Shown here piece by piece: positions 20,199 through 42,704 of a DNA stretch of 64,000 nt (positions are counted from its first letter, which is position 1; each line of letters begins with the position of its first letter). Below the pieces are notes generated by a model. The model did no database searches, was not told where the DNA came from, and worked only from the letters and a program-made list of their open reading frames with translations. Made by a program: the position numbers and the translations under genes. The stretch comes from Myxococcales bacterium. GTDB lineage: Bacteria; Myxococcota_A; UBA9042. The stretch is from positions 48,214 through 112,213 of the forward strand of contig SHZF01000009.1 of the NCBI GenBank assembly GCA_009692425.1. Direction: 5' to 3'.

Positions 20199-20216
20199 TC
20201 CGTCACCTCTAGGGAA

Positions 20217-20999: not shown

Positions 21000-21017
21000 G
21001 GACTTTTCCCCCGCCAG

Positions 21018-22829: not shown

Positions 22830-23600
22830 ATGAAAATTTCCAATGTCATTGCGATGGTCACCGGCGGCGCGTCGGGTCTCGGCCGGGCCACGGCGCAACG
22901 CCTTGCTCGCGAGGGTGCCCGGGTCGCCGTGTGCGATTTGCCTGCCAGCCCGGGTGCCACCACTGCAGCCGAGATCGGCGACGCTGCGATTTTCGTGCCA
23001 GCGGATGTGACGAGCGAACACGACATGCGGGCGGCACTCGACGCGGTCGCCGCGAAGTGGGGCCAAGCGCCCAACGTCGTTGTCAACTGCGCCGGCATCG
23101 CGATCGCCCAGCGCACGCTGACCAAGAGAGGGCCGCACGATCTCGAGTCCTTCGCACGCATCGTGCAGGTCAATGTCGTCGGCACGTTCAACGTGATCCG
23201 GTTGTCGGCGGCGCGCATGGCGGAACTCGAACCGAACGAGCATGGCGAGCGCGGCGTCATCGTGAACACGGCCTCGGTCGCGGCGTACGACGGCCAGATC
23301 GGGCAGGCCGCCTACGCGGCGTCGAAGGGAGCGGTCGTCGGCATGACGCTGCCAATTGCGCGCGACCTCAGCGGCAACGGCATCCGCATCTGCACGATCG
23401 CGCCCGGCCTGTTCAAGACGCCCATGCTCGCGGGGCTGCCCGAGGCGGTCCAGACGCAGTTGGCGAGCCAAGTCCCCTTTCCCAATCGCCTCGGCGACCC
23501 GGACGAGTACGGGCAGTTGGTGCAGGCCATCGTGACGAACCCGATGCTGAACGGCGAGACGATTCGACTCGACGGCGCTCTCCGCATGCCGCCGAAGTAG
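22830..23600 (+). CDS. short-chain dehydrogenase, 3-hydroxyacyl-CoA dehydrogenase type 2 (HSD17B10-like)
   Basis: ATG 22830 follows GGAGGA (22821-22826). TGGASGLG Rossmann motif, [26 protein letters not shown]-terminal [14 protein letters not shown]. Confidence 0.9.
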
Positions 23601-23625
23601 TCGCGGCGACCGACCGGCGCGCCTT

Positions 23626-24150
23626 TCAAGGCAACGTCGCGGCCCGCTCCCAGGGTCGTTGGCTCGATGTCGCCATCAGGTCGAGGCGCCACGCGCCCTC
23701 TTCGCGCACGAGCACCCACTGCCGCGTTTCCCGGCCCGCCCGCACGTCCAACACCACCGAGGCAGTCCCCGCGCGCACGGCAACGACCTCGGTCGGCTGC
23801 TGCGGCGCCCGGGTGGCCAAAGGGGAAGCGGCCGGCGCCGTCGCCATGGCGGCCCGCACGATCGGTCGCGTCGCCGCCGTCAGGAGCGCTCCGATGGAGT
23901 CGCCATCACCCGAAGCCAGCGCCGCTTCCATGCGTGCGGGAAAAGTGGCGGGGTCTTCCTGACATCCGAGGCATCCCACGGCCAGGGCGCACCGTGCCGC
24001 CACGCTCGCAGATCCGGAATGCCAAGGCCCGGTTGGCAAACGGGCAGGGCGCACGCTGCCGGACGCAGCGGGGTCCACTGTGGGCACCCTGCAAAACGAA
24101 GCGGTACCAACTTCGCGCACCTTGCCGGGCGAGGCGGAGTCAGCGGTCAT
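23626..24150 (-). CDS. hypothetical small lipoprotein
   Basis: ORF with G/C-rich third positions and a possible lipobox ALAVGC. The true start is probably internal. No family recognised. Confidence 0.4.
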
Positions 24151-24178: not shown

Positions 24179-24262
24179 TGCGAGAAGTGGGACTTGAACC
24201 CACACGCCCTTGCGGGCGCCAGCCCCTCAAGCTGGTGCGTCTACCAATTTCGCCATCCTCGC
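24179..24262 (-). tRNA. tRNA-Leu (anticodon GAG)
   Basis: The reverse complement GCGAGGATGGCGAAATTGGTAGACGCACCAGCTTGAGGGGCTGGCGCCCGCAAGGGCGTGTGGGTTCAAGTCCCACTTCTCGCA folds as a tRNA. It has a 7-bp acceptor stem with one G-U and an anticodon stem CCAGC/GCTGG with loop TTGAGGG. The long variable arm is CGCCC-GCAA-GGGCG and the T arm is GTGGG-TTCAAGT-CCCAC. CCA is not encoded. Confidence 0.9.
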
Positions 24263-24298
24263 AATCGGCCGACCGCAAGGGTCGACCCGGCGCCCAGC

Positions 24299-24327
24299 AA
24301 GATGGCCGCGACCGCTGCGGGTGTCAA
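24299..24327 (-). promoter_or_regulatory. candidate sigma70-type promoter for tRNA-Leu
   Basis: Minus strand reads TTGACA, 17 nt, CATCTT, about 36 nt upstream of the tRNA 5' end. The -10 element is weak. Confidence 0.3.
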
Positions 24328-24404
24328 GGTTGGAAAAACCACAAACCGGTGCTTTGCCCATCGGCTGGACCGCGCTACGCTCGTCCCCGCAACGGGAGGT
24401 CTCC

Positions 24405-24923
24405 ATGAATCCAAGACTCGCCATGAATCCGAAAGTCGACGCGTGGTTTCGCGAGTACGACACGTACCACCGCCACCCGATGAACCGGGCGACGCACAAG
24501 ATCGCGATCCCGCTGATCGTTTTTCACGTCGTCGCCATGTGCGCCTGGCTGCCGTTGTTCGACGTCGGCGCCCATCCGGTCACGTTGGCCCACGTGGCGA
24601 TCGTCGCTTTGACGGGCTTCTATCTGTCGGTGAGCGTCCTGTACGCTGTCCTGATGGCCGTCTCCACGGCCCTGTGCCTGATTGCTGCGCTCTGGCTCGA
24701 AGCGGCGGTGGGCGTGCAGACGGCGCGCGCGGCTGTAGTCGGTGTCGCGATTCTGGCGTGGGTCGTGCAACTGGCCGGCCATGCAGTGTGGGAGAAGCGT
24801 TCGCCTGCGTTCTTGCGCAACCTCGTGCAGGCGCTGGTGGGGCCGATCTACTTCTTCGCCTTGCTGCTCGGCCATTGGCGCGCGCCGGAGTGGGTCGACC
24901 CGCGAGCGGTGTCGGTCAAGTAG
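24405..24923 (+). CDS. DUF962 / Mpo1-like membrane protein
   Basis: ATG 24405 follows GGGAGG (24394-24399). YHRHPMNRATHKIAIPLIVF and GHAVWEKRSPAFLRNLVQALVGPIYFF match the YGL010w/Mpo1-like pattern. Confidence 0.7.
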   Translation: MNPRLAMNPKVDAWFREYDTYHRHPMNRATHKIAIPLIVFHVVAMCAWLPLFDVGAHPVTLAHVAIVALTGFYLSVSVLYAVLMAVSTALCLIAALWLEAAVGVQTARAAVVGVAILAWVVQLAGHAVWEKRSPAFLRNLVQALVGPIYFFALLLGHWRAPEWVDPRAVSVK

Positions 24924-26236: not shown

Positions 26237-26521
26237 ATGGACGACGTCCGCATCGACCGCACCCGTGCCCACGAACTCGTCGCCGCCGGCGCCCACCTCG
26301 TCGATGTGCGCACGCCGGAAGAGTTTGCGACTGGCGCCCACGACGGTGCCGTCAACATCCCCGTCCAGGTGATCGGGCAGACGATCGACCAGCACTTCGC
26401 CACCGACGCGACCTTGGTGCTCTATTGCCGCTCCGGGATGCGCAGCGACATCGGTGCCCGCATGTTGCGGCAGATGGGGTACGCCAACGCCTACAACGCG
26501 GGCGGCATCGGCGACCTGTAG
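26237..26521 (+). CDS. single-domain rhodanese (sulfurtransferase-like)
   Basis: ATG 26237 follows GAGGA. LVDVRTPEEFATGAHDGAVNIP and the active-site loop YCRSGMRS. Confidence 0.85.
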   Translation: MDDVRIDRTRAHELVAAGAHLVDVRTPEEFATGAHDGAVNIPVQVIGQTIDQHFATDATLVLYCRSGMRSDIGARMLRQMGYANAYNAGGIGDL

Positions 26522-26910: not shown

Positions 26911-29900
26911 CTACGGCCCACAACCCGTCGTGGGCACGCATTTGCCGGGGAGCGCACAGGTACCTGCACACGCCGCCGTGCTGCACGTCGACGCAGCGGG
27001 CAGGGGCACGTAGAAGCAATCGCCGAAAGCGCACTGGTCCTTCGTGCACGCATTGCCGTCGCTGCACGTGGGCGCACCCTGGCACGAACCGCCCGCGCAT
27101 GCATCGCCGTTCGTACAGACGTCGCCGTCGTCGCAGGCGAGGCCGACGGCCACTGCGACATGCAGGCAGCCCGCTGGTGGGATGCAGCCGTCCAGCGTGC
27201 AGAGTTGCTTGTCGTCGCACGGCGCGGCCACTCCCGCACACCCCGCCGCCCCGCACGTGTCGCCAACGGTGCACAGGTTGCCGTCGTTGCAAGGTACCCC
27301 GGCTGGGCCCGCTGTTTGCATACACCCGACTTTGCCGCACAGGTCGAGGGTGCACGGGTCGCCATCGCTGCACGCCAGCGCCGCGCCGTGGCAGGGTGCG
27401 CCGAGACCCGGGCAGGCGTCGGGCACCGTGCACGGGTTGCCATCGTCGCAAGCCGTTCCGGTGGGTGCCTCGGGGAACGAGCAGGCACCACTGCCGACGG
27501 CACACAGGTCGAGCGTGCACGGCTTGCCGTCGATGCAGGTCTTGGCCACCCCGCCTCCGCACGTGGCCGTGGGTCCGCACACCTCGCCGCTCGTGCACGC
27601 GCTGCCGTCGGAACAAGGGGCCCCGGGCACCATCGGTTGGGCGGTGCAGCCGAGTTTGGGTGAGCATCCGTCGAGCGTGCAGGCCTCGCCGTCGTTGCAC
27701 AGCGCGGGTCCTCCGGCGACGCAGACACCACCGGCGCACTTGTCGTTTGCCGTGCACGGGTTGCCGTCGTCACATGCCCCAGCCACGGCTGCAGTCACGC
27801 AGCCGCTCGCCGCAGCGCAGCCGTCCGCCGTGCACGTGTTGCCGTCATCGCACACCACGTTGGCGCCAACGCAAATGCCCGCCGCGCATACTTCGCCCAC
27901 GGTGCACCAGGAGCCGTCGTCGCACGGTGCGGCATCGGTCGCCGAGTGCACACAACCCGCGTCTGCGGCGCATGAATCTGCCGTGCATGGGTCTCCGTCG
28001 CTGCACACCGCGGCCACTCCGAGGCACACGCCGCCCTTGCACTTGTCGCCGTTCGTGCACAGCTTGCCGTCGCTGCACGGGCCGCCGTCTGGCGCGGGTG
28101 TCGCCGCGCACTTGCCGGTGGCGAACGCGCACGAGGCGACCATGCAGCCGTCGCTCGTCGGACAGGCTACGACGGTGGTCGGGTCGAGCGTGCACTTGGT
28201 CCCGCTGCAGACGAGCGTGCCGTTGCACGCATCGCCGTCCTCGAACTTCGCGCAGTCCCCGTCGCCCTTGCAGTTGCACGCGTTCGTGGCGCCGACGCAC
28301 TTGCCACCTTGGCACGCGTCGTTCGGTGTACACGGGTTGGCGTCGTCACACGGGCCCAGTTGGGCGACGTGCGCACAACTGCCGTCGGCCTGGCAGGAGT
28401 CGACGGTGCACGGCTCGCCGTCGCCGCAATCGACCGGGAGGCCCGGCGCGCAGACCTTGGCCTTGCACGCGTCGTGGGTCGTGCAGGCATTGCCATCGTT
28501 GCAGGGGTCGCCGTTTGCCAGCGCAATGCAAGCTCCCGCCGCGCCGCACGCGTCCTGCGTGCACGGGTTGCCGTCGTTGCAAGTGAGCGGTGTGCCGCGG
28601 CAGGCCGTTGCGGTACATGCGTCTGCCAGGGTGCACGGGTTGCCGTCGGAGCACGGACCGGCCCCGGCCGCATGGCCGCACACGCCTGCCAGGCCGCTGC
28701 ACGAATCGATGGTGCAGGCGTTGCCATCGTTGCAGGCCTTCGCCGTCTCAGGCACGCACGCCCCACCTTGGCACGTGTCTCCCTCGGTGCAACCTGCGCC
28801 ATCGTCACACGGAGCCGCCGTGGCGACGTGCACGCAACCCGTCGCTGCCTCGCACAAGTCCAGCGTACACGGGTTGCCGTCCCCGCAGCCCACGCTCGCT
28901 CCTTTGCACAGGCCGCCGGCACAGGCGCCGCCTTGCGTGCACGCGTCGCTGTCCTCGCAGGCAGCGCCGTCCGTAGCCAGCTTCGAGGTGCACGTGCCCG
29001 CTGGGGCCTGACACTGTGCGACGGTGCAAGCCGGGCCGGCCGGGCACACCTTGGGGGCGGCTGCCAGACAGACTCCGCCGCTGCACGCATCTCCCCACGT
29101 GCACGCGTTGCCGTCGTCGCACGGGGGGCCGGTCGCCGCGACATGCACGCAGCCCTGCTTCGGGTGGCACGCGTCCCAGGTGCACGCCTTGCCGTCGCTG
29201 CACGCTGTGCCGGCGCCAGTGCACGTGCCGCCAACGCAGACGTCGGCCTGCGTACACACGTTGCCGTCGTTGCACGTCGCTGCGCCCACGAGCGCCACGT
29301 GGCCGCACTTGCCCGTGTCGGGGTCGCACGCATCGGCCGTGCAAGGGGCGCCATCGTCGCAGGCCACTTGGGAGCCCGCTTTGCACATGCCCTGGGCGCA
29401 CACGGCACCGACGCTGCACAGGTTGGCACCGGCCACGCACGCCACGCTGTCGAGCACGGTTGCCGTGCACCCGGTGGCGGGCACACAGGCGTCGACGGTG
29501 CAACTGTTGCCGTCGCTGCAACCCTTCATCGCTCCTGGCGCGCACTTCTGCTGCAGGCAGATGTCGTTCTCGGTGCACTTGTCGCCGTCGTTGCACACGC
29601 TGCCGTTCGGCAGGGTCTGGTGGGTGCAGCCGCCGGGACCGGAGCCGCACGCGTCTGCCGTGCATGGGTCCGCATCGGCGCAGAGGCCCTCGTCGGTCTG
29701 GTCGTCGCAGTCGTCGTCGAAGCCGTTGCAGGTCTCGCTCGCCGGTGCCGGCGCATCGCAGGCCGACAGCCCCGCCAGCGTGCACTGCCGCTGGCCGATG
29801 CAACTCGCGCCGCCAAGCTTGCCCCCATCGTTCTGGCACGGCGTGGTCAGTGCCCGGGCGACCGCGAACGGCGAGCACGGGCAGATACCGAGCAGTTGTG

Positions 29901-30564
29901 TGACGGGGTCCGCCGGCCCGGGCAGGGGTACGCACTGCGGCCGCACGTCGCCCTCTGTCGTAGGGCGTTCAAGACAGGCGAAATCGGTCGGGCAGTCGGC
30001 ATCGGCCGCGCAGGCTACACCGCAGAACCAACCGATCGGCCCGTGGTCGACACACGTCGCGTCCGCAGCACCGGGGCCGACGCACTCCGACGACTGCGTG
30101 CATGGGTTGCACAGCCGAAAGGTTCGCACGACGCACGCTTGCGCCGTCGTGCCGGGGCGCGCTGCGCAGGAGAGCCCGGGCGCACACTGCCCGTCGGGGC
30201 CACACGTCGGCGCGCACGCCCACGTCGCACCGTCATCCAGGCACGTCTTGCTGGCGCATTCGGCATCGGCGCTGCAGGCGCAGCCACCGGCACCGGGGCA
30301 CACGGCGACGGGCGTGACCTCGACCGGCACGTCGGGCGACACCTCGGTGGCGACTTCGATGCGTGCGGGCGTGTCGGCTGGGGCCGGCGCGTCCTGTACG
30401 GCGCGCACGTCCGGTCGGTCCCACCGCGCCGGCGCCCGCTGCGTCGGCTCCGGCGGGTCGCCGCACGCGATCAGCCCTGCCAGGCACGCGAACCGAGCCA
30501 GCCCGCCACGCCCGGGTCCACGGCACCACATCTGCCCCACGCAGCCACCTCGTCCGCACAGCAT
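26911..30564 (-). CDS. giant cysteine-rich repeat lipoprotein (about 33 C-x-D-G-N-x-C-T-x-D-x-C modules)
   Basis: ATG 30564, leader ending in lipobox LIAC. 1217 aa made almost entirely of alternating ~22-25-aa Cys modules such as CNDGNPCTQDACGAAGACIALANGDP and CNDGNACTTHDACKAKVCAPGLPVD. All other frames are open only because of the repeat composition. Confidence 0.85.
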   Translation of the reverse strand: MLCGRGGCVGQMWCRGPGRGGLARFACLAGLIACGDPPEPTQRAPARWDRPDVRAVQDAPAPADTPARIEVATEVSPDVPVEVTPVAVCPGAGGCACSADAECASKTCLDDGATWACAPTCGPDGQCAPGLSCAARPGTTAQACVVRTFRLCNPCTQSSECVGPGAADATCVDHGPIGWFCGVACAADADCPTDFACLERPTTEGDVRPQCVPLPGPADPVTQLLGICPCSPFAVARALTTPCQNDGGKLGGASCIGQRQCTLAGLSACDAPAPASETCNGFDDDCDDQTDEGLCADADPCTADACGSGPGGCTHQTLPNGSVCNDGDKCTENDICLQQKCAPGAMKGCSDGNSCTVDACVPATGCTATVLDSVACVAGANLCSVGAVCAQGMCKAGSQVACDDGAPCTADACDPDTGKCGHVALVGAATCNDGNVCTQADVCVGGTCTGAGTACSDGKACTWDACHPKQGCVHVAATGPPCDDGNACTWGDACSGGVCLAAAPKVCPAGPACTVAQCQAPAGTCTSKLATDGAACEDSDACTQGGACAGGLCKGASVGCGDGNPCTLDLCEAATGCVHVATAAPCDDGAGCTEGDTCQGGACVPETAKACNDGNACTIDSCSGLAGVCGHAAGAGPCSDGNPCTLADACTATACRGTPLTCNDGNPCTQDACGAAGACIALANGDPCNDGNACTTHDACKAKVCAPGLPVDCGDGEPCTVDSCQADGSCAHVAQLGPCDDANPCTPNDACQGGKCVGATNACNCKGDGDCAKFEDGDACNGTLVCSGTKCTLDPTTVVACPTSDGCMVASCAFATGKCAATPAPDGGPCSDGKLCTNGDKCKGGVCLGVAAVCSDGDPCTADSCAADAGCVHSATDAAPCDDGSWCTVGEVCAAGICVGANVVCDDGNTCTADGCAAASGCVTAAVAGACDDGNPCTANDKCAGGVCVAGGPALCNDGEACTLDGCSPKLGCTAQPMVPGAPCSDGSACTSGEVCGPTATCGGGVAKTCIDGKPCTLDLCAVGSGACSFPEAPTGTACDDGNPCTVPDACPGLGAPCHGAALACSDGDPCTLDLCGKVGCMQTAGPAGVPCNDGNLCTVGDTCGAAGCAGVAAPCDDKQLCTLDGCIPPAGCLHVAVAVGLACDDGDVCTNGDACAGGSCQGAPTCSDGNACTKDQCAFGDCFYVPLPAASTCSTAACAGTCALPGKCVPTTGCGP

Positions 30565-30645
30565 CACCAGCCCGAGCGCTCAGTCAAGCTTGCGCGCAAT
30601 GACCGACGTTGCGTAGCATAGCGGCGCCCGGTCGCGGACACGCCC

Positions 30646-31434
30646 ATGCCGACCCCCCATCGACTCCTCGAAATCGTTGCCATCGCGGCGTTCGCGCTGC
30701 TCGACGTTGGCCTCATGGCCCGCGTCGCCGTAGCCGCCACCACGACGGCCTCCTGGTGCCTCGTCGCGGTCGCCGTCCTCACGGCCTACCTCGTTGCCGA
30801 TTTTGCGTCGGGCTTCGTGCACTGGATGTTCGACCGCTACTTCAGCGTGCGCACCGCGATCGTCGGCGAGAACTTCGTCAAGCCGTTTCGCGAGCATCAC
30901 GTCGACCCCAAGGGCATCTGTCGGCACGACTTCGTCGAGACGAACGGCAACAACTGCATCGGCACTGTGCCGATCCTGGCCGCGGTACACCTGCTGCCCC
31001 TGCCGCCCGACGACTGGCTTTGGTTGTGCGTGGCCGCCGGCACCGCGGCGATGATGATCTTCGTGTTCTGCACCAACCAGTTCCACGCCTGGGCCCACGC
31101 CACCCGCCTGCCGTGGTACATCGCCCGGCTCCAGGGCGCGTGGCTGATCTTGAACAAGCGTCACCACGACATCCACCACACGGCGCCTTTCGATCGCTAC
31201 TACTGCATTACTACAGGGTGGCTGAATCCGCTGCTGCACCGCGTGCGGTTTTTCCCGCTCACGGAGCGGCTGATCTTTCAACTGACCGGAGTGCGCGCAG
31301 GTCGCGACGACGCCGCCTATGCTGGACTCGACCCCGCACTGTACGCTGCGGCGCTGCGGCGCGCCGAGGTCGAAGAGGCCGAAGAGGCCTTGGGGCGCGA
31401 AATCCCGGTCGGAGACGGCAAGGCGCCTCAGTGA
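30646..31434 (+). CDS. carF: CarF / TMEM189 (Kua-domain) family lipid desaturase, probable plasmanylethanolamine desaturase
   Basis: Polytopic protein with His boxes FVHWMFD, FREHHVDP, RHDFVETNG, NQFHAWAH and KRHHDIHHTAPFDRYYCITTGWLN. Confidence 0.85.
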   Translation: MPTPHRLLEIVAIAAFALLDVGLMARVAVAATTTASWCLVAVAVLTAYLVADFASGFVHWMFDRYFSVRTAIVGENFVKPFREHHVDPKGICRHDFVETNGNNCIGTVPILAAVHLLPLPPDDWLWLCVAAGTAAMMIFVFCTNQFHAWAHATRLPWYIARLQGAWLILNKRHHDIHHTAPFDRYYCITTGWLNPLLHRVRFFPLTERLIFQLTGVRAGRDDAAYAGLDPALYAAALRRAEVEEAEEALGREIPVGDGKAPQ

Positions 31435-32840
31435 GCCCGCTGCGCCCCTGGTCGGCTGCGCGTACGGCGGCGCGCGTCCCCTTGGCGCGCCTTGCCCTGC
31501 TCGCGAGTCCCGGCCACCCGAGCCCGTTGGCTGCAGCCGCGACGCCGGCGGAAGTGGAGCGCGTGCTCGGTGCGACGGCTGCGGTGACCGCGCGCGGCGG
31601 ACCGGCGCAGGTCGAGATACAGCTCGGCCACTTCTGCAACAATCGCTGCGTGTTCTGCGCGTCGGGTCAACTCACGGAGCAGGGCCGCGCCCAGCCGGTG
31701 CCCGAACTGCAGGTCGTTCGCGCGCTCGAGGCCGCTGCCGCCAACGGCGTGCGGCGCCTGACACTGCTGGGAGGCGAGCCGACCATCCAGGATGCGTTCC
31801 TGCCCAGCCTGCGGCGCGCCGTCGAACTCGGATTCGCCGACATCACGATCTTCACGAACGGCACCCGCACGGCCGATGCGCGCTTCGTCGATGCCGTCGC
31901 AAGCCTTGGCTCGTTCACCTGGCGCATCTCCATCCAAGGCGCGACGGAAGCGGCCCACGATGTGGCAGTTGGCCGGCGCGGCGCATTCCAGCGCATCGTC
32001 GCGGGTCTCGCATTGCTGCAGGCGCGCCATCAGCGCGTCACGGTCAACATGTGCCTGACGACGCACGCCTTGGCGACGCTCGGCGCTCTCCCGGCGCTTT
32101 TGCTCGGCCGCGGCGTCGGCCAGTTGTGCATCGACATGGTGCGCCCGGTCAGCGCCGGCGAGCGCACCGATGCCGAACTGAAGGCGATGATGCCGACTTT
32201 TGCCGCCGCCGGCCGTGCGCTGCGAGCGATGCTGGCAGAACTCGATGCGCGCGCCCCGGATTTCGACCTCAACCTGACACATCTGCCTTTCTGCGCGCTG
32301 CCCGAAGCCGCCCCGCGCATCCGCCACGGCGGCGACGCGACCGTGACGTTTACGGCCGACCTCGACGAGCGGCAGGGCGTGATGGACAAGTACGCGTTTC
32401 AGCAGACCGACCGGCGCAAGCTCCCGGAGTGTGCGGGTTGCGTCTTCTTTGCCAACTGTTCCGGTGTGCCTCACGCGTACGCCGCCTGGCATGGCGCCGC
32501 GAGCGTCCGTCCCGTGACGATGGCCGAAGTCGTTGCGGCGGACCCCACCGGCCGCGCCCTCTCCGTCGCGGGCGACCAGGCTTCGGCCGAGTGGCAGCAG
32601 GCGCGCGCCTGGGTCGACCGCATTGTGCGCGTAGCCCGCCGTGGCGGTGCGCGGGTCGGCTGGCGCGGTGCGCTGGTCCGCATCGAACTGCGCGAAGGTA
32701 CGCTGGAGTTGTGGCCGCGTACCGAGCCCGGCATCGCGATTGGAGCCCGGGCCGTAGCGCCGCAAGCCTGGGATGCAACCACGCTGCGCGCCGTGAACGC
32801 GCGACTGGCCGCCGTGATCAAGGCCACCCGACGCGGCTGA
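31431..32840 (+). CDS. radical SAM enzyme with C-terminal SPASM/twitch-like Cys cluster
   Basis: CNNRCVFC (CxxxCxxC), LTLLGGEPT, IFTNGT, C-terminal PECAGCVFFANCSG. Start is either GTG 31431 (GTGA overlap with the carF stop) or GTG 31554/31563. Confidence 0.8.
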   Translation: MSPLRPWSAARTAARVPLARLALLASPGHPSPLAAAATPAEVERVLGATAAVTARGGPAQVEIQLGHFCNNRCVFCASGQLTEQGRAQPVPELQVVRALEAAAANGVRRLTLLGGEPTIQDAFLPSLRRAVELGFADITIFTNGTRTADARFVDAVASLGSFTWRISIQGATEAAHDVAVGRRGAFQRIVAGLALLQARHQRVTVNMCLTTHALATLGALPALLLGRGVGQLCIDMVRPVSAGERTDAELKAMMPTFAAAGRALRAMLAELDARAPDFDLNLTHLPFCALPEAAPRIRHGGDATVTFTADLDERQGVMDKYAFQQTDRRKLPECAGCVFFANCSGVPHAYAAWHGAASVRPVTMAEVVAADPTGRALSVAGDQASAEWQQARAWVDRIVRVARRGGARVGWRGALVRIELREGTLELWPRTEPGIAIGARAVAPQAWDATTLRAVNARLAAVIKATRRG

Positions 32841-32873
32841 TCGGACCTGCGCCCGGCCGATCCCTTCGACGCC

Positions 32874-34394
32874 TCAACCCAACGCGAAAAACTCGCGAAT
32901 GCGCGCGAGCAGCACTCCCGATGCCGCGTTCACGTCGTGCTTGGCGTCGGCCTTGGCCGCTCCCGACTGGCGCGCAGCCAACGCCGCCTGGCGCGCGGCG
33001 AGGATGGCGCTGATTTTCTCCGCCACCTCCGGCGCTTCCGCAAGAATTTCGCGAAAGGACGTCTTGTTCACAACCAGCAGCGCACAGTCCTGCGTGGCGC
33101 GAATCGTCGCGGCGCGCCGCTCCCCGGTCATCAGCGACATCTCGCCGAAGAACTTGCCCTTGGCGAGCCGCGCGACCTCGATCTGGGCCCCGTCGGCCCC
33201 ACCCGGCACGAGCACCGCGACCTCGCCGTGCTCGATGATAAACAGTTCTTCGCCCGAATCGCCCTTGCGCAGCACCGTCTCGCCCGGCGCGAACCGCCGG
33301 GTGAACAGGCGCTCGGCCAGTTGCTGCACGCGCTCGTCAGGGAAGGCGTCGAGCAGGTCGACTCCCCGCAGGTCCTGTACGCGCCGCCGCAGCCGTTCGG
33401 CGTGCAGTTCGGCCTCCGTCGCGTCGTGGACCTGGTGCATCCGCACTTCGCGCTGGGGCAACGGAATCGGGATGCCCGCGCGCCGAAAGCCGTACCAGAT
33501 ACGCTCGCGGATGTTGCTGTCGGCCGGGTACACCTCGCCCGGGTTGTCGAGCCAGTAGCGCAACACGTACGTCACGCCATCGGACGAAAACGCCTGGATC
33601 GAGACGCTCGCCGCAGGCACCGCAACCGTGCACGGCGTATCGACGACGCAGGCGAGGATCACTTCCTTGATGTGTTCGGGCGAGTACGAGTACGGCGCCT
33701 GCACCAGGATCTGACGGCGCAACAGCTTGGTCGGGCGAGAAAAGTTGCGGATCGACGCCTTGGCCATCACGCCGTTCGGCACGATGATCTCGAACTGGTC
33801 GTTCGACAGCAGCTTCGTGGCGCGCCAGTTGATCTCGGTCACCTTGCCCAAGGGCTCGCTCGAATCGCTCAGTTGCAGCCAGTCGCCGACTTCGAACGGC
33901 TGCTGGGCCTGGATCGACAACCCTGAGAAAACGTTGCCGAGCGTGTCTTGGAGCGACAGGCCGATGACGGCGGTCAGCAACGCCGATGTCGTGAGCAGGG
34001 AACCCGGTTCCACCCCGCCTTCGCGCAGCACGGCCAGGCCAACCACGAACCACACGATCGACGAGCCGATGTCGCGGAAGATCTTGGGTACCGCGCCCGT
34101 GCGCCGCCGCGCCAGGATCGCATCGAGTACAAGCGTGAGCAGCCCGAGGCCGATCGTGGCCCCGAGCAGCGCCGTCGCGAGGAATTGCAAGGCGCGCGCC
34201 AAGGCCGGTGGCTCCAGCACGTAGGCCCGCACCAGCGCCACGAACACGAATGCCAGGAACAACGCGAGGGGGCCGAACAACTTGCGGCGGTCGGAGCGCC
34301 GCAGCAGCAGCAGCAACAGGCCCGTGATGACGGCCGCCACCAAGGGGCCCAGGTCGGTCTGCAAGGGGCCGAGTCGATTGAGCAGGTCCTGCAT
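32874..34394 (-). CDS. MscS-family mechanosensitive channel with C-terminal cyclic-nucleotide-binding domain
   Basis: LTAVIGLSLQDTLGNVFSGLSIQAQQPFEVGDW...VTEINWRATKL is the MscS core. RKGDSGEELFIIEHGEVAV...FFGEMSLMTGERRAATIRA is the cNMP-binding motif. Confidence 0.9.
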   Translation of the reverse strand: MQDLLNRLGPLQTDLGPLVAAVITGLLLLLLRRSDRRKLFGPLALFLAFVFVALVRAYVLEPPALARALQFLATALLGATIGLGLLTLVLDAILARRRTGAVPKIFRDIGSSIVWFVVGLAVLREGGVEPGSLLTTSALLTAVIGLSLQDTLGNVFSGLSIQAQQPFEVGDWLQLSDSSEPLGKVTEINWRATKLLSNDQFEIIVPNGVMAKASIRNFSRPTKLLRRQILVQAPYSYSPEHIKEVILACVVDTPCTVAVPAASVSIQAFSSDGVTYVLRYWLDNPGEVYPADSNIRERIWYGFRRAGIPIPLPQREVRMHQVHDATEAELHAERLRRRVQDLRGVDLLDAFPDERVQQLAERLFTRRFAPGETVLRKGDSGEELFIIEHGEVAVLVPGGADGAQIEVARLAKGKFFGEMSLMTGERRAATIRATQDCALLVVNKTSFREILAEAPEVAEKISAILAARQAALAARQSGAAKADAKHDVNAASGVLLARIREFFALG

Positions 34395-35053: not shown

Positions 35054-36442
35054 ATGAAGCGCGATCAAGCCCTCATTTTCATGTTGGCTTTGTTTATCGG
35101 CGGCTACGTTATCGGCCGCGCGACGGCAAAGCAGACGCCTTCTCCCGTTGCCGCACCCGCCGTGGCCTTGCCTGGGGCCACGCCTGCGTCCGTCGCCAGT
35201 GCGAGCCCTGCCATCTCGAGCGAGCCCGCCCCGAGCCCATCGCCCGCGCCACCGCCCGCTCCGGCGTCCGAAGCAAAGCCCGCGCCGTCCGACCCGAACC
35301 AGGTCTGGCGCGCCGTGCTCGACAAGGACAAGGACCCGAAATCGGGCCCCGACACCGCCGACATCAAGATCGTCGTGTTCGCGGCGCTCGGCCAGCCCGA
35401 AGTGGCCGAATTCGCTCCGGCGCTCGTCGAGGCGGAGAAGAAGTACGGCAAGCAGATCCAGATCATCTGGAAGCAGAAGGTGATCCTGCCGCCGCACCCC
35501 GACACGCCGATCGCGGGCGAGGCGATGTTGGCTGCGCACGCACAGGGCAAGTTCCGTCCCTTCTGGGACAAGGTGACGCGCTCGGGCCAGGCCGTCGACC
35601 GCGGCAGCCTCGTATCGATCGCCAAGGAGGTCGGCATCGACATTGGCCGCTTCGAAAAGGACCTCGACACCGGTCGCCACCGCGGGCGTGCTCTCAAGGA
35701 CGGGTTGCTCGCCAACGAGATCGCCGCCCACTCGAATCCGAACATCGCCGTCAACGGCGTGCGGCTGTCGCCGCCCAAGAACTGGGACCACCTGCGCGAG
35801 TTGATCGACGCCCAGATCGAGAAGGCCAAGGGGATGGGCGGCAAGAAGGGTTGGGAGTTGTACGACTCGATCGTCAAGGACGGCAAGCAGTTCGAGCAAA
35901 CCGCCGGCCCCAAGGTCGCGATCGCGCACGACGGCAGTCCGACGTTTGGCAACCCGAACGCCAAGGTGGCGGTCGAGGTGTACGAGGACTTCCAGTGTCC
36001 GTTCTGTTCGAAGCTGGCGCCAAGCATCAAGGAGTTCGCGAAGAAGTTCCCCAACGATGTCAAGATTGTATACAAGCACATGCCCCTGACGAGCATCCAC
36101 GACAAGGCGCAGATGGCGTCGGAGGCGTCGATGGCCGCGCACGCGCAGGGCAAGTTCTGGGAGTACCACGACGTGCTGTACGCCAACCAGCAGGCGCTCG
36201 ACCGTGCGGATCTGGAGCGCTATGCTCAGCAAGTCGGTTTGAACATGGAGCAATTCAAGCGTGACCTGGAGATGGGCACGGGCAAGGACACCATCAAGCG
36301 CGATGCTGCCGAAGGCGAGCGCAACGGCGTCAGCGGTACGCCTGCGGTGTACATGAATGGCTTGAAGTACCAGGGCCCGCGTGGCTATCCGGCGGAAGGA
36401 CTCGAAGCCGTCGCCCGGTCGTACCTGGGGCTCGGCGACTGA
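35054..36442 (+). CDS. membrane-anchored tandem DsbA-like thiol:disulfide oxidoreductase (N-domain lacks CxxC)
   Basis: N-terminal TM ALIFMLALFIGGYVI and a Pro/Ala linker. The second thioredoxin-fold domain has YEDFQCPFCSKL. The first, paralogous domain has QPEV at the equivalent position. Confidence 0.85.
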   Translation: MKRDQALIFMLALFIGGYVIGRATAKQTPSPVAAPAVALPGATPASVASASPAISSEPAPSPSPAPPPAPASEAKPAPSDPNQVWRAVLDKDKDPKSGPDTADIKIVVFAALGQPEVAEFAPALVEAEKKYGKQIQIIWKQKVILPPHPDTPIAGEAMLAAHAQGKFRPFWDKVTRSGQAVDRGSLVSIAKEVGIDIGRFEKDLDTGRHRGRALKDGLLANEIAAHSNPNIAVNGVRLSPPKNWDHLRELIDAQIEKAKGMGGKKGWELYDSIVKDGKQFEQTAGPKVAIAHDGSPTFGNPNAKVAVEVYEDFQCPFCSKLAPSIKEFAKKFPNDVKIVYKHMPLTSIHDKAQMASEASMAAHAQGKFWEYHDVLYANQQALDRADLERYAQQVGLNMEQFKRDLEMGTGKDTIKRDAAEGERNGVSGTPAVYMNGLKYQGPRGYPAEGLEAVARSYLGLGD

Positions 36443-36583: not shown

Positions 36584-38494
36584 CTAGGCTGCCGACCGCT
36601 TCGACTCCTCGACCGTGCGCGCCTGCAGTTCGGCGAGCAGGTCCTCGCCGTGCTCCTCGATCTCGGCCAGCCACGCCCGGCAGCGCAGGTCGGCACGCTT
36701 CATGAAGCGGTCGGCGCGGCTGCGGCGCTCCGGAAACTTGGTGGCATACTTCACGAGGATGCGCGCCATGGCGGTGTCGGCCAGGATGCGCGTCAGTCGT
36801 TCGGCGTGCAGCAGGCCCGGGGCGAAGTCGAGCTTGGGGTCCCACTCGTTGAACAGGGCGTCCGTCCAACTGCCCATGGGCAAGTCGTACGTGGCCTTCA
36901 GCTTGTTGCGCGCGATGCGCACCAGGATCGTCTGCAGTGCTTTGTACTTGTAGGAGAAGAGCCGTGCCAGTTGCTTCTCCAGCGGGTCGCTCTCGGCCAC
37001 GCGCTTCCAGTTCGCGCGCGCCATCTTCACGATGAAGCGGCGCGGGTCGCGCAGGCCCTGCATCAACTGGTCCTTCAGCGCCATGAGCGACTGGATCTGG
37101 CTCGTACCCTCGTAGATCGGCAACACGAGCGCGTCGCGCAGCAGCTTCTCTGGCAGCGCCTCCTGCGTGTAGCCGACGCCACCGAGGATTTGCATCGCCG
37201 TACGCGACATCTCGACCGCGCGCTCCGAGCCGACGTACTTGAGCAGCGGCGTCAGGTCGCGGGCCTGGCGTTTCACGCGCTGCAGGCGACGCTCGAGTTC
37301 GGCGCGCGCGGCTTCGTCGGCCGGCGGGTCGAATTTCAGGATCTGTTCGAGCTTGGTCGAACGCTCCACCTTCTGCGCGGTCTCGAAGGCGAGTGCGCGC
37401 AACGCTTCGACCTGCAAGGTCATGTCGTCAAGCATGTCCGCCACCATCTCGTGGCGGTCGATCGTCTTGCCCATCGTGACGCGCTGGGCTGCATACTCCC
37501 GCGCCGTGCGCAGTGCCGCCTCGCAGATGCCGAGGCCTTCGAAGCCGACGGCCAGCCGGGCGAAGTTCATCAGCGCCAGCATCAACTCGAAGCCCTCGCC
37601 GCGCCGGCCGATCAGTTCGCCGATCGAGTCTTCGTAGACCAGGCTGCACGTCGGCGACCCGTTGTGGCCGATCTTGTGCTCGACGTTGCTGATGCGGACG
37701 TTCGTCACCGTCTTGCCGTCGCGTTCGATCTTCTGGCGCACGAGCAGCAGCGACAGGCCCTTGAGCCCGGGAGACTTCTTCGGGTCTTCGGTGCGGACCA
37801 GTACGAGTTGGTACTGGCCGTGGCCTGAGGTGATGAAGATTTTTTCGCCGTTCACCTTCCACACGCCATCGCCGGCATCGACGGCGGCAGTGCGAATCTG
37901 CGCGAGGTCCGAGCCGGCGCCCGACTCCGTCAGTACCATGCAGCCCCAGGCCCGGCCGGCGACGCAGTCGGCGATCACGGCATCGTAGGGCGTCGACAGG
38001 ACGCGGCCGTTCTTGACGACCGTGCGCGGGTCGCGCAACGCATACATCAGCAGCGAGACCGCAACGCCGGTGTGGAAGCCGAAGTGCGTCATGCACGACA
38101 CGTCGGCGCGCGAGATCATCTCTCCGGCCGCGAGGTAGACGACGGCGGGCGCGTTCAGGCCGCCCTGCTCACGCGGCACGCACAGCCCGTAGAGGTCGAG
38201 CTTCTTCATCTCCTTGAAGACTTTGGCGAACGTGGGCGATTCGATGACCTCCCCGTTTTCCATGCGCGTACCTTCGCGATCGATCTGGCGTGCCACCGGC
38301 GCGATGCGGCGCGCGGCGAACTTGCCGATCTCCTGCAGCACGCCTTCGTAGCTGTCGCGGGCGTCGCGCACGCTGGCGGGCCGGTCCTCGGCGGTCGCGC
38401 CGTGCTCGCTCATGTCGAAAAGCATCTCCCAATCGAGGGCTTGCTCTACCCAGAATCGGAGATCGGCGTTGTCGGTATAGAAATTGTCGCTCAT
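36584..38494 (-). CDS. large acyl-CoA dehydrogenase (FadE-like, with C-terminal extension)
   Basis: Start at ATG 38494 (MSDNFYTDN...). GAGSDLAQIRTAAV...WKVNGEKIFITSG and PIYEGTSQIQ. 636 aa. Confidence 0.9.
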   Translation of the reverse strand: MSDNFYTDNADLRFWVEQALDWEMLFDMSEHGATAEDRPASVRDARDSYEGVLQEIGKFAARRIAPVARQIDREGTRMENGEVIESPTFAKVFKEMKKLDLYGLCVPREQGGLNAPAVVYLAAGEMISRADVSCMTHFGFHTGVAVSLLMYALRDPRTVVKNGRVLSTPYDAVIADCVAGRAWGCMVLTESGAGSDLAQIRTAAVDAGDGVWKVNGEKIFITSGHGQYQLVLVRTEDPKKSPGLKGLSLLLVRQKIERDGKTVTNVRISNVEHKIGHNGSPTCSLVYEDSIGELIGRRGEGFELMLALMNFARLAVGFEGLGICEAALRTAREYAAQRVTMGKTIDRHEMVADMLDDMTLQVEALRALAFETAQKVERSTKLEQILKFDPPADEAARAELERRLQRVKRQARDLTPLLKYVGSERAVEMSRTAMQILGGVGYTQEALPEKLLRDALVLPIYEGTSQIQSLMALKDQLMQGLRDPRRFIVKMARANWKRVAESDPLEKQLARLFSYKYKALQTILVRIARNKLKATYDLPMGSWTDALFNEWDPKLDFAPGLLHAERLTRILADTAMARILVKYATKFPERRSRADRFMKRADLRCRAWLAEIEEHGEDLLAELQARTVEESKRSAA

Positions 38495-38667
38495 GGAGGG
38501 CTCGGAGTGCGCGCACGGCGGCGCGGGTGGGCGGCCCACGAGGCCGCACTGTCAACGTCCACCTTTCGACGCACCGCGTCAAGAATGATCGACACAGGTT
38601 CCCTTGTGCGTGGGGCGGCGGTACCTTGGCGGCGGCCGGTTCGTGACTGTGACGGGCCGAGGCTGTC

Positions 38668-40323
38668 ATGATCGAACCGACCGCCCACACTGCCGCCCGG
38701 GTCCGCGCTCCGCTGCCCGCGGGTCCGGTCGATGTCGCGATCGTCGGGTGCGGCCTCGGCGGCTTGACGGCCGGCGCGTACCTGGCGCGCGCAGGGCTTC
38801 GCGTGGCGTGTTTCGACAGCCACTATGTCGCGGGCGGGTGCGCCACGATGTTCGAGCGGGGCCGCAGCGACGAGCGCTACTGCTTCGACGTGGGCCTGCA
38901 CTACATCGGCGACTGCGGTCCGGGCGGCATGATCCCGAGCCTGCTGCGCGGGGTCGGCGTCGCCCAGGCCTTCGTGCCGATGGACGCCGATGGCTTCGAC
39001 ACGCTGGTGCTGCCGGACCTGCGCTTTCGGGTGCCGGTCGGGCTGGATCGCTATCGGGAGCGGCTGGCGGAGACCTTTCCTGCCGAGCGGCGCGGCATCG
39101 ACAACTACGTGCGGTTCCTGGCCGAGGTCGACCGTGCCCAGCGCCAGATGGAACACGCCGGCGGCCGGGTCGGGCTGCGCGCCCTGATCGACGTCGTGCT
39201 TCATGGGCGCCTGCTCGCGCGGTGGCGCACGGCCACCATCGGTTCCGTCGTGCAGTCATGTACCCGCGACCCGCGCCTGCAAGCCGTGCTGCTCGGCCAG
39301 AACGGCGACTACGGCGTGCCCCCCTCCGAAGCGTCGGCGGTGCTGCACGCGGGGCTGCAGAATCACTATTTCCGCGGTGCTTGGTACCCGGCTGGCGGCG
39401 GCCAGACGATTGCCGACAGCCTGGCAAGCGTCATCGAGGCGCACGGCGGTACGATCCACCTGCGCTGCGGCGTGGACCGCATCCTGTTCGAAGACGGTCG
39501 CGCCATCGGCGTGCACATCGAGGCGGGCGGCCGGCATGGCGGCGCCGAGGTGCGGGCGCGCGCCGTGCTGTCGAACGCGGACCTCAAGCGTACGCTGCTC
39601 GACCTCGTAGGGCCCGCACTGTTGCCGCCGCAGTGGCTCGGCCGCGCGCGCAACTTCCAGATGGGCGGCGCGCTCTACCTGTTGTGCCTGGGCATCCGCC
39701 ACGATTTCGCTGCGGCCGGCATGACGGCCACGAATTACTGGCAGTTCGACTCGTATGACATGGAGTCGTCCTACCGGGAGGCGCGCGTCGGCGACCGGCC
39801 CGTGCCGCGCGGTTGTTACGTCACGTCCACCGCGTTCAAGGACCCCGCCACGCAAGGACACGCGCCGCCGGGTGTCACCGCCGTCGAGGTCATGACGCTG
39901 GTGCCACACGACCTGGGCGCCTGGGGCGTCGATGATCCGGCGGACCTGGCATCGGGCCGCTACCGCAAGCTGCCGGGCTACGTCGAGCGCAAGGCGGCGG
40001 TGGAGGCAGACCTGATCGGCCGACTCGATACGCTGTTTCCCGGCAGCTCCGCCGGCATCGTGTTCCGGGAAGGGGCAAGCCCACTGACGCACGAACGGTT
40101 CACGCGGGCGAGCGATGGCACCGGCTACGGCCTCGCCGCCACGCCGGCGCAGATGATGAAGGGAAGGCCCGGCTACAGCGGCCCGCTGCCGGGGCTGTGG
40201 CTGTGCGGCGCATCGACCCGGGCGGGCCACGGCATCGTCGGCGCGATGACGGGTGGCCAGCGCGCGGCGGCGCGGATTGGAGCGGCGCTGGGGGCGAATG
40301 TCGCGGCGCCGCTGTCGGCGTGA
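38668..40323 (+). CDS. FAD-dependent oxidoreductase of the phytoene desaturase / RetSat-like family
   Basis: VDVAIVGCGLGGLTAGAYLARAGLRVACFDSHYVAGGC dinucleotide-binding fold. C-terminal LWLCGASTRAGHGIVGAMTGG. Confidence 0.85.
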   Translation: MIEPTAHTAARVRAPLPAGPVDVAIVGCGLGGLTAGAYLARAGLRVACFDSHYVAGGCATMFERGRSDERYCFDVGLHYIGDCGPGGMIPSLLRGVGVAQAFVPMDADGFDTLVLPDLRFRVPVGLDRYRERLAETFPAERRGIDNYVRFLAEVDRAQRQMEHAGGRVGLRALIDVVLHGRLLARWRTATIGSVVQSCTRDPRLQAVLLGQNGDYGVPPSEASAVLHAGLQNHYFRGAWYPAGGGQTIADSLASVIEAHGGTIHLRCGVDRILFEDGRAIGVHIEAGGRHGGAEVRARAVLSNADLKRTLLDLVGPALLPPQWLGRARNFQMGGALYLLCLGIRHDFAAAGMTATNYWQFDSYDMESSYREARVGDRPVPRGCYVTSTAFKDPATQGHAPPGVTAVEVMTLVPHDLGAWGVDDPADLASGRYRKLPGYVERKAAVEADLIGRLDTLFPGSSAGIVFREGASPLTHERFTRASDGTGYGLAATPAQMMKGRPGYSGPLPGLWLCGASTRAGHGIVGAMTGGQRAAARIGAALGANVAAPLSA

Positions 40324-42675: not shown

Positions 42676-42704
42676 GGAGGCCTCTCCTGCATCGGCCGCG
42701 CGGA

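What the first reader, a model, noticed from the sequence alone, without database searches (positions are those of the whole stretch)
30646..32840. CarF/TMEM189-type ether-lipid desaturase gene coupled to a radical SAM / SPASM-like gene
ORF 30646..31434 carries every histidine box I associate with the Kua/TMEM189/CarF family: FVHWMFD, FREHHVDP, RHDFVETNG, NQFHAWAH and KRHHDIHHTAPFDRYYCITTGWLN. Its TGA overlaps an in-frame GTG (GTGA at 31431-31434) of a roughly 470-codon ORF. That ORF has the CNNRCVFC radical-SAM motif and a C-terminal Cys cluster (PECAGCVFFANCSG) resembling SPASM/twitch auxiliary clusters. In Myxococcus xanthus, CarF makes vinyl-ether (plasmalogen) lipids used in singlet-oxygen/light sensing. 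As far as I know, no radical SAM partner belongs to that pathway. A coupled rSAM enzyme suggests extra chemistry on ether lipids (C-methylation, chain modification or an oxygen-independent step), or a different substrate for this CarF paralogue. The pair is transcribed divergently, 81 bp away, from the 1217-aa Cys-repeat lipoprotein.
Basis: partly seen in the sequence, partly recalled or inferred. Interest (0 to 1): 0.8.

Follow-up and report, generated by a model that had tools for sequence, protein, structure and literature searches.

The report
CarF desaturase plus relocated HxsC-like rSAM
An ordinary plasmalogen desaturase gene (carF) is followed by an overlapping radical SAM gene, but that gene belongs to a peptide-modifying (HxsC-like) family and sits beside carF only in three closely related lineages, so a new ether-lipid pathway is unlikely.

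Summary
ORF 30646-31434 is a CarF/PEDS1-type desaturase (PF10520, 6e-54) with every essential histidine. ORF 31431-32840 is a radical SAM enzyme with CX3CX2C and five further invariant Cys, including CX2CX5C. The two genes overlap by GTGA, preceded by a conserved AAGG.

The interpretation does not hold up:
- The pairing occurs only in the window and its two closest metagenomic relatives (rSAM 85% and 66% identical).
- It is absent from 83 other CarF loci and about 165 other loci of the rSAM family.
- Five MAGs carry both genes on different contigs.
- The closest CarF relatives share the order rhodanese -> carF -> <- Rce1-like <- metallophosphoesterase. In L016 the rSAM fills the carF|Rce1 slot. 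Elsewhere that slot is empty or holds an acyltransferase or a P-type ATPase.

The rSAM's best models are HxsC4 and HxsC, far below cut-off. Homologues at 40-50% identity lie in His-Xaa-Ser clusters with HxsB, HxsD, (HGS)n precursors and an HExxH hydroxylase. None of these partners is in the 64 kb window.

Best reading: a normal carF, with an orphan HxsC-like peptide/protein-modifying rSAM relocated next to it and now co-translated. Interest is low to moderate.

The parts
30646..31434 (+). carF / PEDS1-type plasmanylethanolamine desaturase gene (262 aa)
   Evidence: PF10520 at 6.2e-54. NF045946 CarF at 236 bits, below the 500 cut-off. Ten His, D63 and F81 are invariant with Myxococcus CarF. dN/dS is 0.12 against L014.
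31417..31434 (+). Translational-coupling junction: GGCAAGGC (AAGG Shine-Dalgarno-like, 7 nt before the start) followed by GTGA, the stop/start overlap
   Evidence: Both elements are invariant in the window, L014 and L016 even though the flanks have diverged. No terminator-like or sigma-70-like site lies between the genes.
31431..32840 (+). HxsC-like radical SAM gene (469 aa), orphan with no Hxs partners nearby
   Evidence: PF04055 at 7.7e-21. The best NCBIfam models are HxsC4 (85 bits against 500) and HxsC (71 bits against 268). The AF2 model has pLDDT 79. Foldseek's best matches are SkfB, SuiB, BlsE, viperin and PqqE, with TMq at most 0.45. dN/dS is 0.13.
31635..31658 (+). CX3CX2C radical SAM [4Fe-4S] motif (C69, C73, C76; CNNRCVFC)
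   Evidence: Invariant in 44 homologues. Read directly from the sequence.
32430..32459 (+). CX2CX5C (C334, C337, C343), probable ligands of an auxiliary Fe-S cluster. C208 (32052-32054) and C288 (32292-32294) are also invariant.
   Evidence: Invariant columns in A3. HxsC's second cluster uses a CxxC at C342/C345 (PMC13128918).
30568..30645 (.). 78-nt divergent intergenic region, the presumed promoter region for carF-rSAM and for the Dicty_CTDC gene
   Evidence: Inferred from position only. No sigma-70 consensus was found.
26911..30567 (-). Dicty_CTDC Cys-repeat putative lipoprotein. It lies between the rhodanese gene and carF, which are adjacent in relatives.
   Evidence: PF00526 at 5e-44. Lipobox-like LIAC. 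The L016 orthologue is 49% identical. Rhodanese-carF adjacency in relatives.
26237..26515 (+). Small rhodanese gene, the ancestral upstream neighbour of carF
   Evidence: 63% identical to the rhodanese directly upstream of carF in L264. PF00581 at 8.6e-13. It lies 7-204 nt upstream of carF in 18 related loci.
32874..34394 (-). Convergent MscS-type channel with a cNMP-binding domain. It marks the downstream boundary of the pair.
   Evidence: PF00924, PF21082 and PF00027. 92% identical in L014.

Best explanation
Gene 1 is an ordinary orthologue of CarF/PEDS1, the O2-dependent di-iron membrane desaturase that makes the vinyl-ether bond of plasmalogens. Gene 2 belongs to a Myxococcota/Binatia radical SAM family related to HxsC, the peptide/protein-modifying rSAM of His-Xaa-Ser systems. 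It has one SAM cluster and probably one auxiliary Fe-S cluster. In the common ancestor of the window, L014 and L016, this already existing stand-alone rSAM gene landed in the variable slot just 3' of carF. It lost its own expression signals and became translationally coupled: an AAGG lies inside the last carF codons and the stop and start overlap as GTGA. The two proteins are therefore co-expressed, but they most likely act in different processes. CarF acts on alkyl-ether phosphatidylethanolamine. The rSAM acts on a peptide or protein substrate encoded elsewhere. Shown here: the family assignments, the coupling, the shallow distribution and the synteny. Inferred: the direction of the event (insertion rather than loss), the rSAM's class of substrate, and the absence of a shared pathway.
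For: CarF identity: PF10520 at 183 bits; all essential His including the H113 equivalent (H94), plus D63 and F81, conserved with Myxococcus CarF (PMC9131029). rSAM family: HxsC4 and HxsC are the top models, with full-length model coverage. Homologues neighbour HxsB (TIGR03978, 447 bits against a 370 cut-off), HxsD (TIGR03976) and an HExxH hydroxylase (TIGR04267). They also neighbour (HGS)n precursor peptides. Pair distribution: only L014 and L016 share it. It is absent from 83 CarF loci and about 165 rSAM loci. Five MAGs carry both genes unlinked. Synteny: rhodanese -> carF -> <- Rce1 <- Metallophos in at least 12 relatives. L016 has the rSAM exactly between carF and an orthologous Rce1 (51% identical) and Metallophos (56% identical). 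The same slot holds Acyl_transf_3 or a P-type ATPase in L028, L027 and L024. Coupling and selection.
Against: A 4-bp overlap with a conserved SD-like element, kept over a divergence of about 66% rSAM identity, is typical of true operons, and operon partners are often functionally related. Both genes co-occur in the sister MAGs, which is compatible with a shared function at a distance. Most family members (about 75-80% of loci) lack Hxs partners within 5 kb, so the peptide-modifying assignment is an extrapolation for the window clade. No substrate was identified. Only 64 kb of the genome could be inspected.
Confidence: 0.65

Rival explanations
1. Functional coupling. The rSAM acts in the same pathway as CarF, for example by C-methylating, cross-linking or otherwise modifying ether lipids or plasmalogens. 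Alternatively this CarF has a different substrate that the rSAM prepares.
For: Translational coupling is conserved in three lineages. Both genes are under purifying selection. rSAM enzymes that act on lipids exist: GDGT-MAS/Tes appears among the weak structural and HMM matches. The neighbourhood is loosely lipid-themed, with an Mpo1-like gene, an acyl-CoA dehydrogenase and MCCase-like genes.
Against: The pairing is absent outside a shallow clade. carF's ancestral locus lacks the rSAM, and the same slot holds unrelated genes in relatives. The family's recurrent partners are peptide-maturation genes (HxsB, HxsD, HxsA-like, HExxH), never lipid genes. The Tes/GDGT-MAS matches are generic rSAM-core hits. 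The CarF sequence shows no departure from canonical PEDS1 residues. No paper links CarF to a radical SAM enzyme.
Confidence: 0.1
2. The rSAM is the HxsC component of a dispersed His-Xaa-Ser-type system (antiphage or other peptide maturation). Its hxsA, hxsB and hxsD partners lie elsewhere in the genome, so it is not truly orphan.
For: HxsC4 and HxsC are the best models. Family members sit in Hxs-type clusters in several clades of the tree. The second-cluster CxxC matches that described for HxsC.
Against: Canonical HXS keeps HxsB and HxsC adjacent in more than 99% of systems (PMC13128918). None of the 13 loci in the window's own clade has an Hxs partner within its flanks. No HxsB, HxsD, HExxH or HxS-repeat ORF lies in the 64 kb window. 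Scores are far below the HxsC cut-offs. The clade has a C-terminal region about 100 aa shorter.
Confidence: 0.15
3. The rSAM post-translationally modifies CarF itself, for example its clade-specific C-terminal tail, or another membrane protein encoded nearby.
For: HxsC-type enzymes modify proteins. CarF in this clade has an extended tail ending in a conserved GKA. No separate precursor ORF is adjacent.
Against: This is speculation with no direct support. The conserved GGCAAGGC is equally explained as an SD element. The tail is otherwise poorly conserved in L016. There is no His-Xaa-Ser-like motif in CarF.
Confidence: 0.05

Closest known systems
CarF (Myxococcus xanthus) / TMEM189 = PEDS1, plasmanylethanolamine desaturase (PF10520; NF045946)
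   Same: Full-length Lipid_desat domain. About 43-49% identical to Myxococcaceae CarF. All nine functionally required histidines are present, including the PEDS1-diagnostic H113 equivalent, as are the required Asp and Phe. Four hydrophobic segments are visible.
   Different: It scores 236 bits against the narrow NCBIfam equivalog cut-off of 500. The genomic context differs from Myxococcaceae (murI and tolQR neighbours there; rhodanese and Rce1 in this lineage). It carries a clade-specific C-terminal tail that overlaps the next gene.
HxsC / HxsC4, the paired radical SAM maturase of the His-Xaa-Ser (HXS) system (TIGR03977, NF038332; antiphage system, Nat Commun 2026, PMC13128918)
   Same: It is the best-scoring curated model, aligned over nearly the whole model. 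It has CX3CX2C plus a C-terminal CxxC-containing second cluster. Homologues at 40-50% identity neighbour HxsB, HxsD and (HGS)n-repeat precursors.
   Different: Scores of 71-85 bits are far below the cut-offs of 268 and 500. No HxsB, HxsD or HxsA lies in the window or in the window's clade. The Myxococcota/Binatia clusters add an HExxH beta-hydroxylase and an aldo-keto reductase. The family carries an extra, uncharacterised C-terminal domain of 100-200 aa. Here the gene is coupled to carF instead.
SPASM/twitch-domain radical SAM enzymes (SkfB, SuiB, BlsE, PqqE)
   Same: These are the top structural and sequence matches in the PDB. A CX2CX5C motif is characteristic of the SPASM/twitch auxiliary-cluster region.
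   Different: No PF13186 or TIGR04085 hit. Only part of the seven-Cys SPASM motif is present. TM-scores are at most 0.45 over the query.

Membership tests
CarF/PEDS1 (plasmanylethanolamine desaturase) | PF10520 Lipid_desat domain above the gathering score | tested here: met
   183.1 bits against 26.4; residues 48-218 cover profile positions 1-172 of 175.
CarF/PEDS1 (plasmanylethanolamine desaturase) | Eight universally conserved His plus the PEDS1-specific His (CarF H113), all required for function (PMC9131029) | tested here: met
   H59, H84, H85, H94 (RHD, the H113 equivalent), H147, H151, H173, H174, H177 and H178 are invariant in an alignment with Myxococcus, Corallococcus and other CarF sequences.
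CarF/PEDS1 (plasmanylethanolamine desaturase) | Conserved Asp and Phe required for PEDS1 activity (mouse D100 and F118) | tested here: met
   D63 and F81 are invariant. Their mapping to mouse D100 and F118 is inferred from spacing relative to the EHH motif and was not aligned to the mouse sequence here.
CarF/PEDS1 (plasmanylethanolamine desaturase) | NCBIfam equivalog NF045946 score at or above cut-off | tested here: not met
   235.9 bits against a cut-off of 500. The model appears tuned to Myxococcaceae-like sequences.
CarF/PEDS1 (plasmanylethanolamine desaturase) | Vinyl-ether (delta-1') desaturase activity on plasmanylethanolamine | not testable with these tools
   Needs complementation of M. 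xanthus delta-carF, or lipid analysis.
HXS system, HxsC component | Score at or above the TIGR03977 or NF038332 cut-off | tested here: not met
   70.8 bits against 267.9, and 85.1 bits against 500. Hxs-linked homologues score similarly, 72-104 bits.
HXS system, HxsC component | Adjacent HxsB radical SAM/SPASM partner | tested here: not met
   No HxsB-like ORF in the 64 kb window, L014 or L016, by tblastn and a custom HMM. The rSAM-core HMM finds only one rSAM in the window.
HXS system, HxsC component | HxsD (TIGR03976) partner and an HxsA substrate with His-Xaa-Ser repeats | tested here: not met
   None in the window. The only H.S-repeat hit is a spurious antisense frame of the Dicty_CTDC gene. 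Both are present next to homologues: L011, L122, L142 and L252 carry (HGS)n precursors, and L171 and L154 carry HxsD.
HXS system, HxsC component | Two Fe-S cluster motifs (CX3CX2C plus a C-terminal CxxC) | tested here: met
   C69/C73/C76 and C334/C337(/C343) are invariant. Compare HxsC C105/C108 and C342/C345.
SPASM/twitch radical SAM | Match to PF13186 or TIGR04085, or the seven-Cys SPASM motif | tested here: not met
   No such hit at E<=0.01. Only CX2CX5C plus two upstream invariant Cys (C208, C288) are present.
SPASM/twitch radical SAM | Fold similarity to solved SPASM/twitch enzymes | tested here: inconclusive
   The top Foldseek hits are SkfB, SuiB, BlsE and PqqE (E 1e-9 to 1e-7), but TMq is only 0.37-0.45 and viperin and MoaA score similarly.
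Conserved carF-rSAM operon (as a system) | Adjacency retained across related genomes | tested here: not met
   The pair is present only in the window, L014 and L016. It is absent in 83 CarF loci and about 165 rSAM-family loci.

The most novel reading that the evidence does not exclude
In this shallow Myxococcota lineage an HxsC-type, protein-modifying radical SAM enzyme has been recruited into an operon with CarF. It now acts on plasmalogen or ether-lipid metabolism, or on CarF itself. That would add a radical SAM step to aerobic plasmalogen biology, which is not known to have one.
Probability: 0.08. Interest if true: 0.7.

Novelty: new variant of a known kind. Interest (0 to 1): 0.25.

Why it matters
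If the coupling were functional, it would add an unexpected radical SAM step to aerobic plasmalogen biosynthesis or to CarF-based light and singlet-oxygen signalling. The evidence instead shows a lineage-specific gene-order accident, so the pair is a poor lead for new lipid chemistry. The useful results lie elsewhere. First, there is a large, uncurated HxsC-like rSAM family in Myxococcota and Binatia, with at least 465 species genomes and 129 clusters at 50% identity. Some members sit in non-canonical His-Xaa-Ser clusters that carry an HExxH hydroxylase and an aldo-keto reductase, but most are orphans. Second, a public gene call for this rSAM is over-extended. Third, a rhodanese-carF adjacency is conserved in this lineage.

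Tried and rejected
1. rSAM start at 31140 (the database call P0001, 566 aa) or at 31554. Both rejected on homologue N-termini, the conserved motif upstream of 31554, the GC3 frame plot and the conserved GTGA.

2. The C-terminal domain as a fused HxsD or another known domain. hhalign probability was 0.07, and there were no NCBIfam hits even at E<=10.

3. PADLOC defence models. Only generic viperin-type rSAM-core hits were found, and HXS does not appear among the PADLOC 2.0 hits.

4. A metagenome scan to deepen the census of the pair-bearing clade. It still gave 0 of 80 loci with CarF.

5. Retrieving the window's own contig through the P0001 look-up. It was not on record.

6. A search for conserved partners of CarF in Myxococcaceae. 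Only housekeeping synteny (murI, tolQ/R and ftsE-like genes) was found, with no lipid or rSAM partner.

7. Promoter and terminator consensus scans. They were uninformative: no promoter, and terminator-like hits at chance level.

8. A literature search for CarF + plasmalogen + radical SAM. It returned 0 papers.
Full report
**Observation**

The two ORFs are exactly as described. ORF 30646..31434 translates to a 262-aa protein carrying all the quoted histidine boxes. It matches PF10520 (Lipid_desat) at 6.2e-54 over the whole domain. The sequence at 31431-31434 is GTGA. From that GTG a 469-codon frame runs to the TGA at 32840, and it contains CNNRCVFC and PECAGCVFFANCSG. It matches PF04055 at 7.7e-21. 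These are real genes and not chance ORFs. GC3 in the carF frame is 0.85-0.97. GC3 in the rSAM frame rises from about 0.5 to above 0.8 at about 31420-31540. dN/dS against the closest relative is 0.12 for carF and 0.13 for the rSAM.

**Where the rSAM gene starts**

The rSAM frame is open back to 30609, and a public gene call (P0001, 566 aa) starts at 31140, inside carF.
- Homologue N-termini align only from about window residue 25 onwards. A conserved motif, (N/S)PHAPAATPE, aligns to residues 30-41, which lie upstream of GTG 31554 (residue 42).
- The GC3 switch sits at about 31420-31540.
- In both relatives that share the pair, the rSAM start overlaps the carF stop by 4 bp (L014 1011-1014; L016 8001-8004).

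At the junction, GGCAAGGC and GTGA are invariant across the window, L014 and L016, while the surrounding sequence has diverged. The GGCAAGGC contains an AAGG Shine-Dalgarno-like element 7 nt before the start. No terminator-like or promoter-like site separates the genes. Translational coupling is therefore well supported.

**Gene 1 is an ordinary CarF/PEDS1**

- It is 41-49% identical to the CarF proteins of Myxococcus, Corallococcus and Archangium, and 50-59% identical to many stand-alone homologues in uncultured Myxococcota.
- Ten histidines are invariant in the alignment. One of them is H94 in RHDF. This corresponds to CarF H113, the residue that separates PEDS1 from plant FAD4-type and alphaproteobacterial homologues (PMC9131029).
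- D63 and F81 are also invariant. By spacing they match the Asp and Phe required in mouse PEDS1.
- It misses only the NCBIfam equivalog cut-off, 236 bits against 500.

**Gene 2 is an HxsC-like radical SAM enzyme**

Across 44 homologues the invariant cysteines are C69/C73/C76 (CX3CX2C), C208, C288 and C334/C337/C343 (CX2CX5C). This fits one SAM cluster plus probably one auxiliary cluster. No SPASM model matches.

An AlphaFold model (pLDDT 79) resembles SkfB, SuiB, BlsE, viperins, PqqE and GDGT-MAS only at the generic rSAM level, with TMq at most 0.45. PDB sequence matches are likewise confined to the rSAM core.

The best curated models are HxsC4 (85 bits, aligned over model positions 15-335 of 335) and HxsC (71 bits). 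Both are far below their cut-offs.

**What the rSAM family looks like elsewhere**

- The family is large. It has at least 465 hits in GTDB species genomes (Polyangia, Nannocystales, Sandaracinaceae, Binatia and others). At 50% clustering it forms 129 clusters with E<=1e-30.
- In several separate clades of the family tree the neighbours are HxsB (TIGR03978, 447 bits against a 370 cut-off), HxsD (TIGR03976), an aKG-HExxH peptide beta-hydroxylase (TIGR04267) and a divergent aldo-keto reductase. One member is fused to the aldo-keto reductase (P0243).
- Four loci carry precursor ORFs ending ...SHGSHGSHGS...HG(Q/S)W, that is, His-Xaa-Ser repeats.
- The HXS system was recently shown to be an antiphage system. 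In it HxsB, HxsC and HxsD mature the HxS-repeat effector HxsA, and HxsC carries a second cluster with a CxxC. The system is reported almost only from Pseudomonadota (PMC13128918).
- The window's rSAM therefore belongs to a peptide/protein-modifying lineage. Its own clade of 13 loci shows no Hxs partners. The 64 kb window has no HxsB, HxsD, HExxH or HxS-repeat ORF.
- The clade's C-terminal region is about 100 aa shorter than the family norm. That region matches no known family and is not HxsD-like.

**Is the pairing conserved?**

Only in the two closest relatives:

| Locus | rSAM identity | CarF identity | Shared flanking genes |
|---|---|---|---|
| L014 | 85% | 83% | MscS gene downstream |
| L016 | 66% | 75% | Dicty_CTDC gene divergently upstream |

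Everywhere else the pair is absent:
- The next-closest rSAMs (54-64% identical; L015, L017, L262, L263) have no CarF.
- None of about 85 distinct genome loci or 80 metagenome loci of the rSAM family encodes CarF within its flanks.
- None of 83 CarF loci from other genomes has any ORF that matches an rSAM-core HMM.
- Five MAGs carry both genes on different contigs.

**How the pair arose**

The closest CarF relatives share a conserved arrangement: rhodanese -> carF -> <- Rce1-like <- metallophosphoesterase. Rhodanese lies 7-204 nt upstream of carF in 18 loci. Rce1 lies 16-171 nt downstream in about 9 loci.

L016 has carF -> rSAM -> <- Rce1 <- Metallophos, and both downstream genes are orthologous to those in L264 (51% and 56% identical). 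So the rSAM occupies exactly the carF|Rce1 slot. In other relatives the same slot holds an Acyl_transf_3 gene (L028) or a P-type ATPase in either orientation (L024, L027).

MAG CAMDBH01 keeps the ancestral rhodanese-carF-Rce1 locus (L031) and has its rSAM on another contig (L106).

In the window the rhodanese gene is still present at 26237-26515. It is now separated from carF by the 3.7 kb Dicty_CTDC gene.

The simplest history is that a pre-existing stand-alone rSAM gene moved into a rearrangement-prone slot 3' of carF in a recent ancestor and then became translationally coupled.

**Mechanism and verdict**

I commit to the following, at about 0.65 confidence. CarF makes vinyl-ether lipids as usual. 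The co-translated rSAM is an orphan HxsC-like enzyme that uses 5'-deoxyadenosyl radical chemistry on a peptide or protein substrate encoded elsewhere. The operon link reflects shared expression and not a shared pathway.

| Rival explanation | Confidence |
|---|---|
| True lipid-pathway coupling | 0.10 |
| A dispersed HXS system with partners elsewhere in the genome | 0.15 |
| Modification of CarF itself | 0.05 |

As a pair this is a new, lineage-restricted variant built from known kinds. Interest is low to moderate (0.25).

Noticed in passing
window 26237-26515 (+); L024-L037, L264-L266 just upstream of carF: A small (~94 aa) rhodanese gene lies directly upstream of carF and co-directional with it (7-204 nt gap) in 18 related loci. 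In the window the Dicty_CTDC gene separates the two. This adjacency is far more widely conserved than carF-rSAM, though it may only reflect synteny within one lineage.
   Followed up: partly
L011 11868-12245(-), L122 1332-1679(+), L142 3-71(+), L252 51-419(+); L154 3967-10991; L171 5001-10477: Myxococcota and Binatia MAGs carry non-canonical His-Xaa-Ser clusters. They contain (HGS)n-repeat precursors ending HG(Q/S)W, HxsB, HxsD and the HxsC-like rSAM. They also contain an aKG-HExxH peptide beta-hydroxylase and an aldo-keto reductase, the latter fused to the rSAM in P0243. The published HXS antiphage system is reported as 99.7% Pseudomonadota with four genes only.
   Followed up: partly
L024 5732-8317, L027 5700-8153, L028 5702-6826, L016 8001-9413: The slot between carF and the convergent Rce1-like gene is variably filled in related genomes. 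It holds a P-type ATPase in either orientation, an Acyl_transf_3 acyltransferase or the rSAM, or it is empty. This suggests a local rearrangement hot spot.
   Followed up: partly
window 30609-32840 (+): The rSAM reading frame stays open for 822 nt upstream of its real start, across most of carF. A public gene call (P0001, 566 aa, start 31140) is over-extended into carF.
   Followed up: yes
window 31240-31480 (+): Over the poorly conserved CarF C-terminal tail, the third frame (that of ORF 31319..33013) has higher GC3 (0.8-0.9) than the carF frame (0.72-0.78). This is unexplained and probably compositional.
   Followed up: no
window 26911-30567 (-) and 40336-42792 (-): Two large Dicty_CTDC Cys-repeat proteins (1218 aa and 818 aa) lie in one window. 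The first has a lipobox-like LIAC near its N-terminus.
   Followed up: partly
window 18624-23675 (-), 24179-24262 (-), 24198-24923 (+): There is a methylcrotonyl-CoA carboxylase-like set: biotin carboxylase, enoyl-CoA hydratase and an 885-aa carboxyltransferase. A tRNA gene follows, then an Mpo1-like (2-hydroxy fatty acid dioxygenase family) ORF whose listed start overlaps the tRNA.
   Followed up: no
window 32874-34394 (-), 35054-36442 (+), 36584-38539 (-), 38668-40323 (+): The downstream neighbours are an MscS channel fused to a cNMP-binding domain, a double DsbA/thioredoxin-like protein, a 651-aa acyl-CoA dehydrogenase and an amine-oxidase/CrtI-like flavoprotein.
   Followed up: no
L003/L031/L106 (CAMDBH01), L010, L035, L113, L137: Several public MAG records that carry these GC-rich Myxococcota-type genes are titled 'Klebsiella pneumoniae', 'uncultured Rickettsiales' or 'Enterobacteriaceae'. 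These are probably mislabelled records.
   Followed up: no
L263 3592-4928 (+): In one relative the rSAM is immediately preceded by co-directional TP_methylase and NAD_binding_7 genes (siroheme-synthase-like pieces). This is a single case.
   Followed up: no
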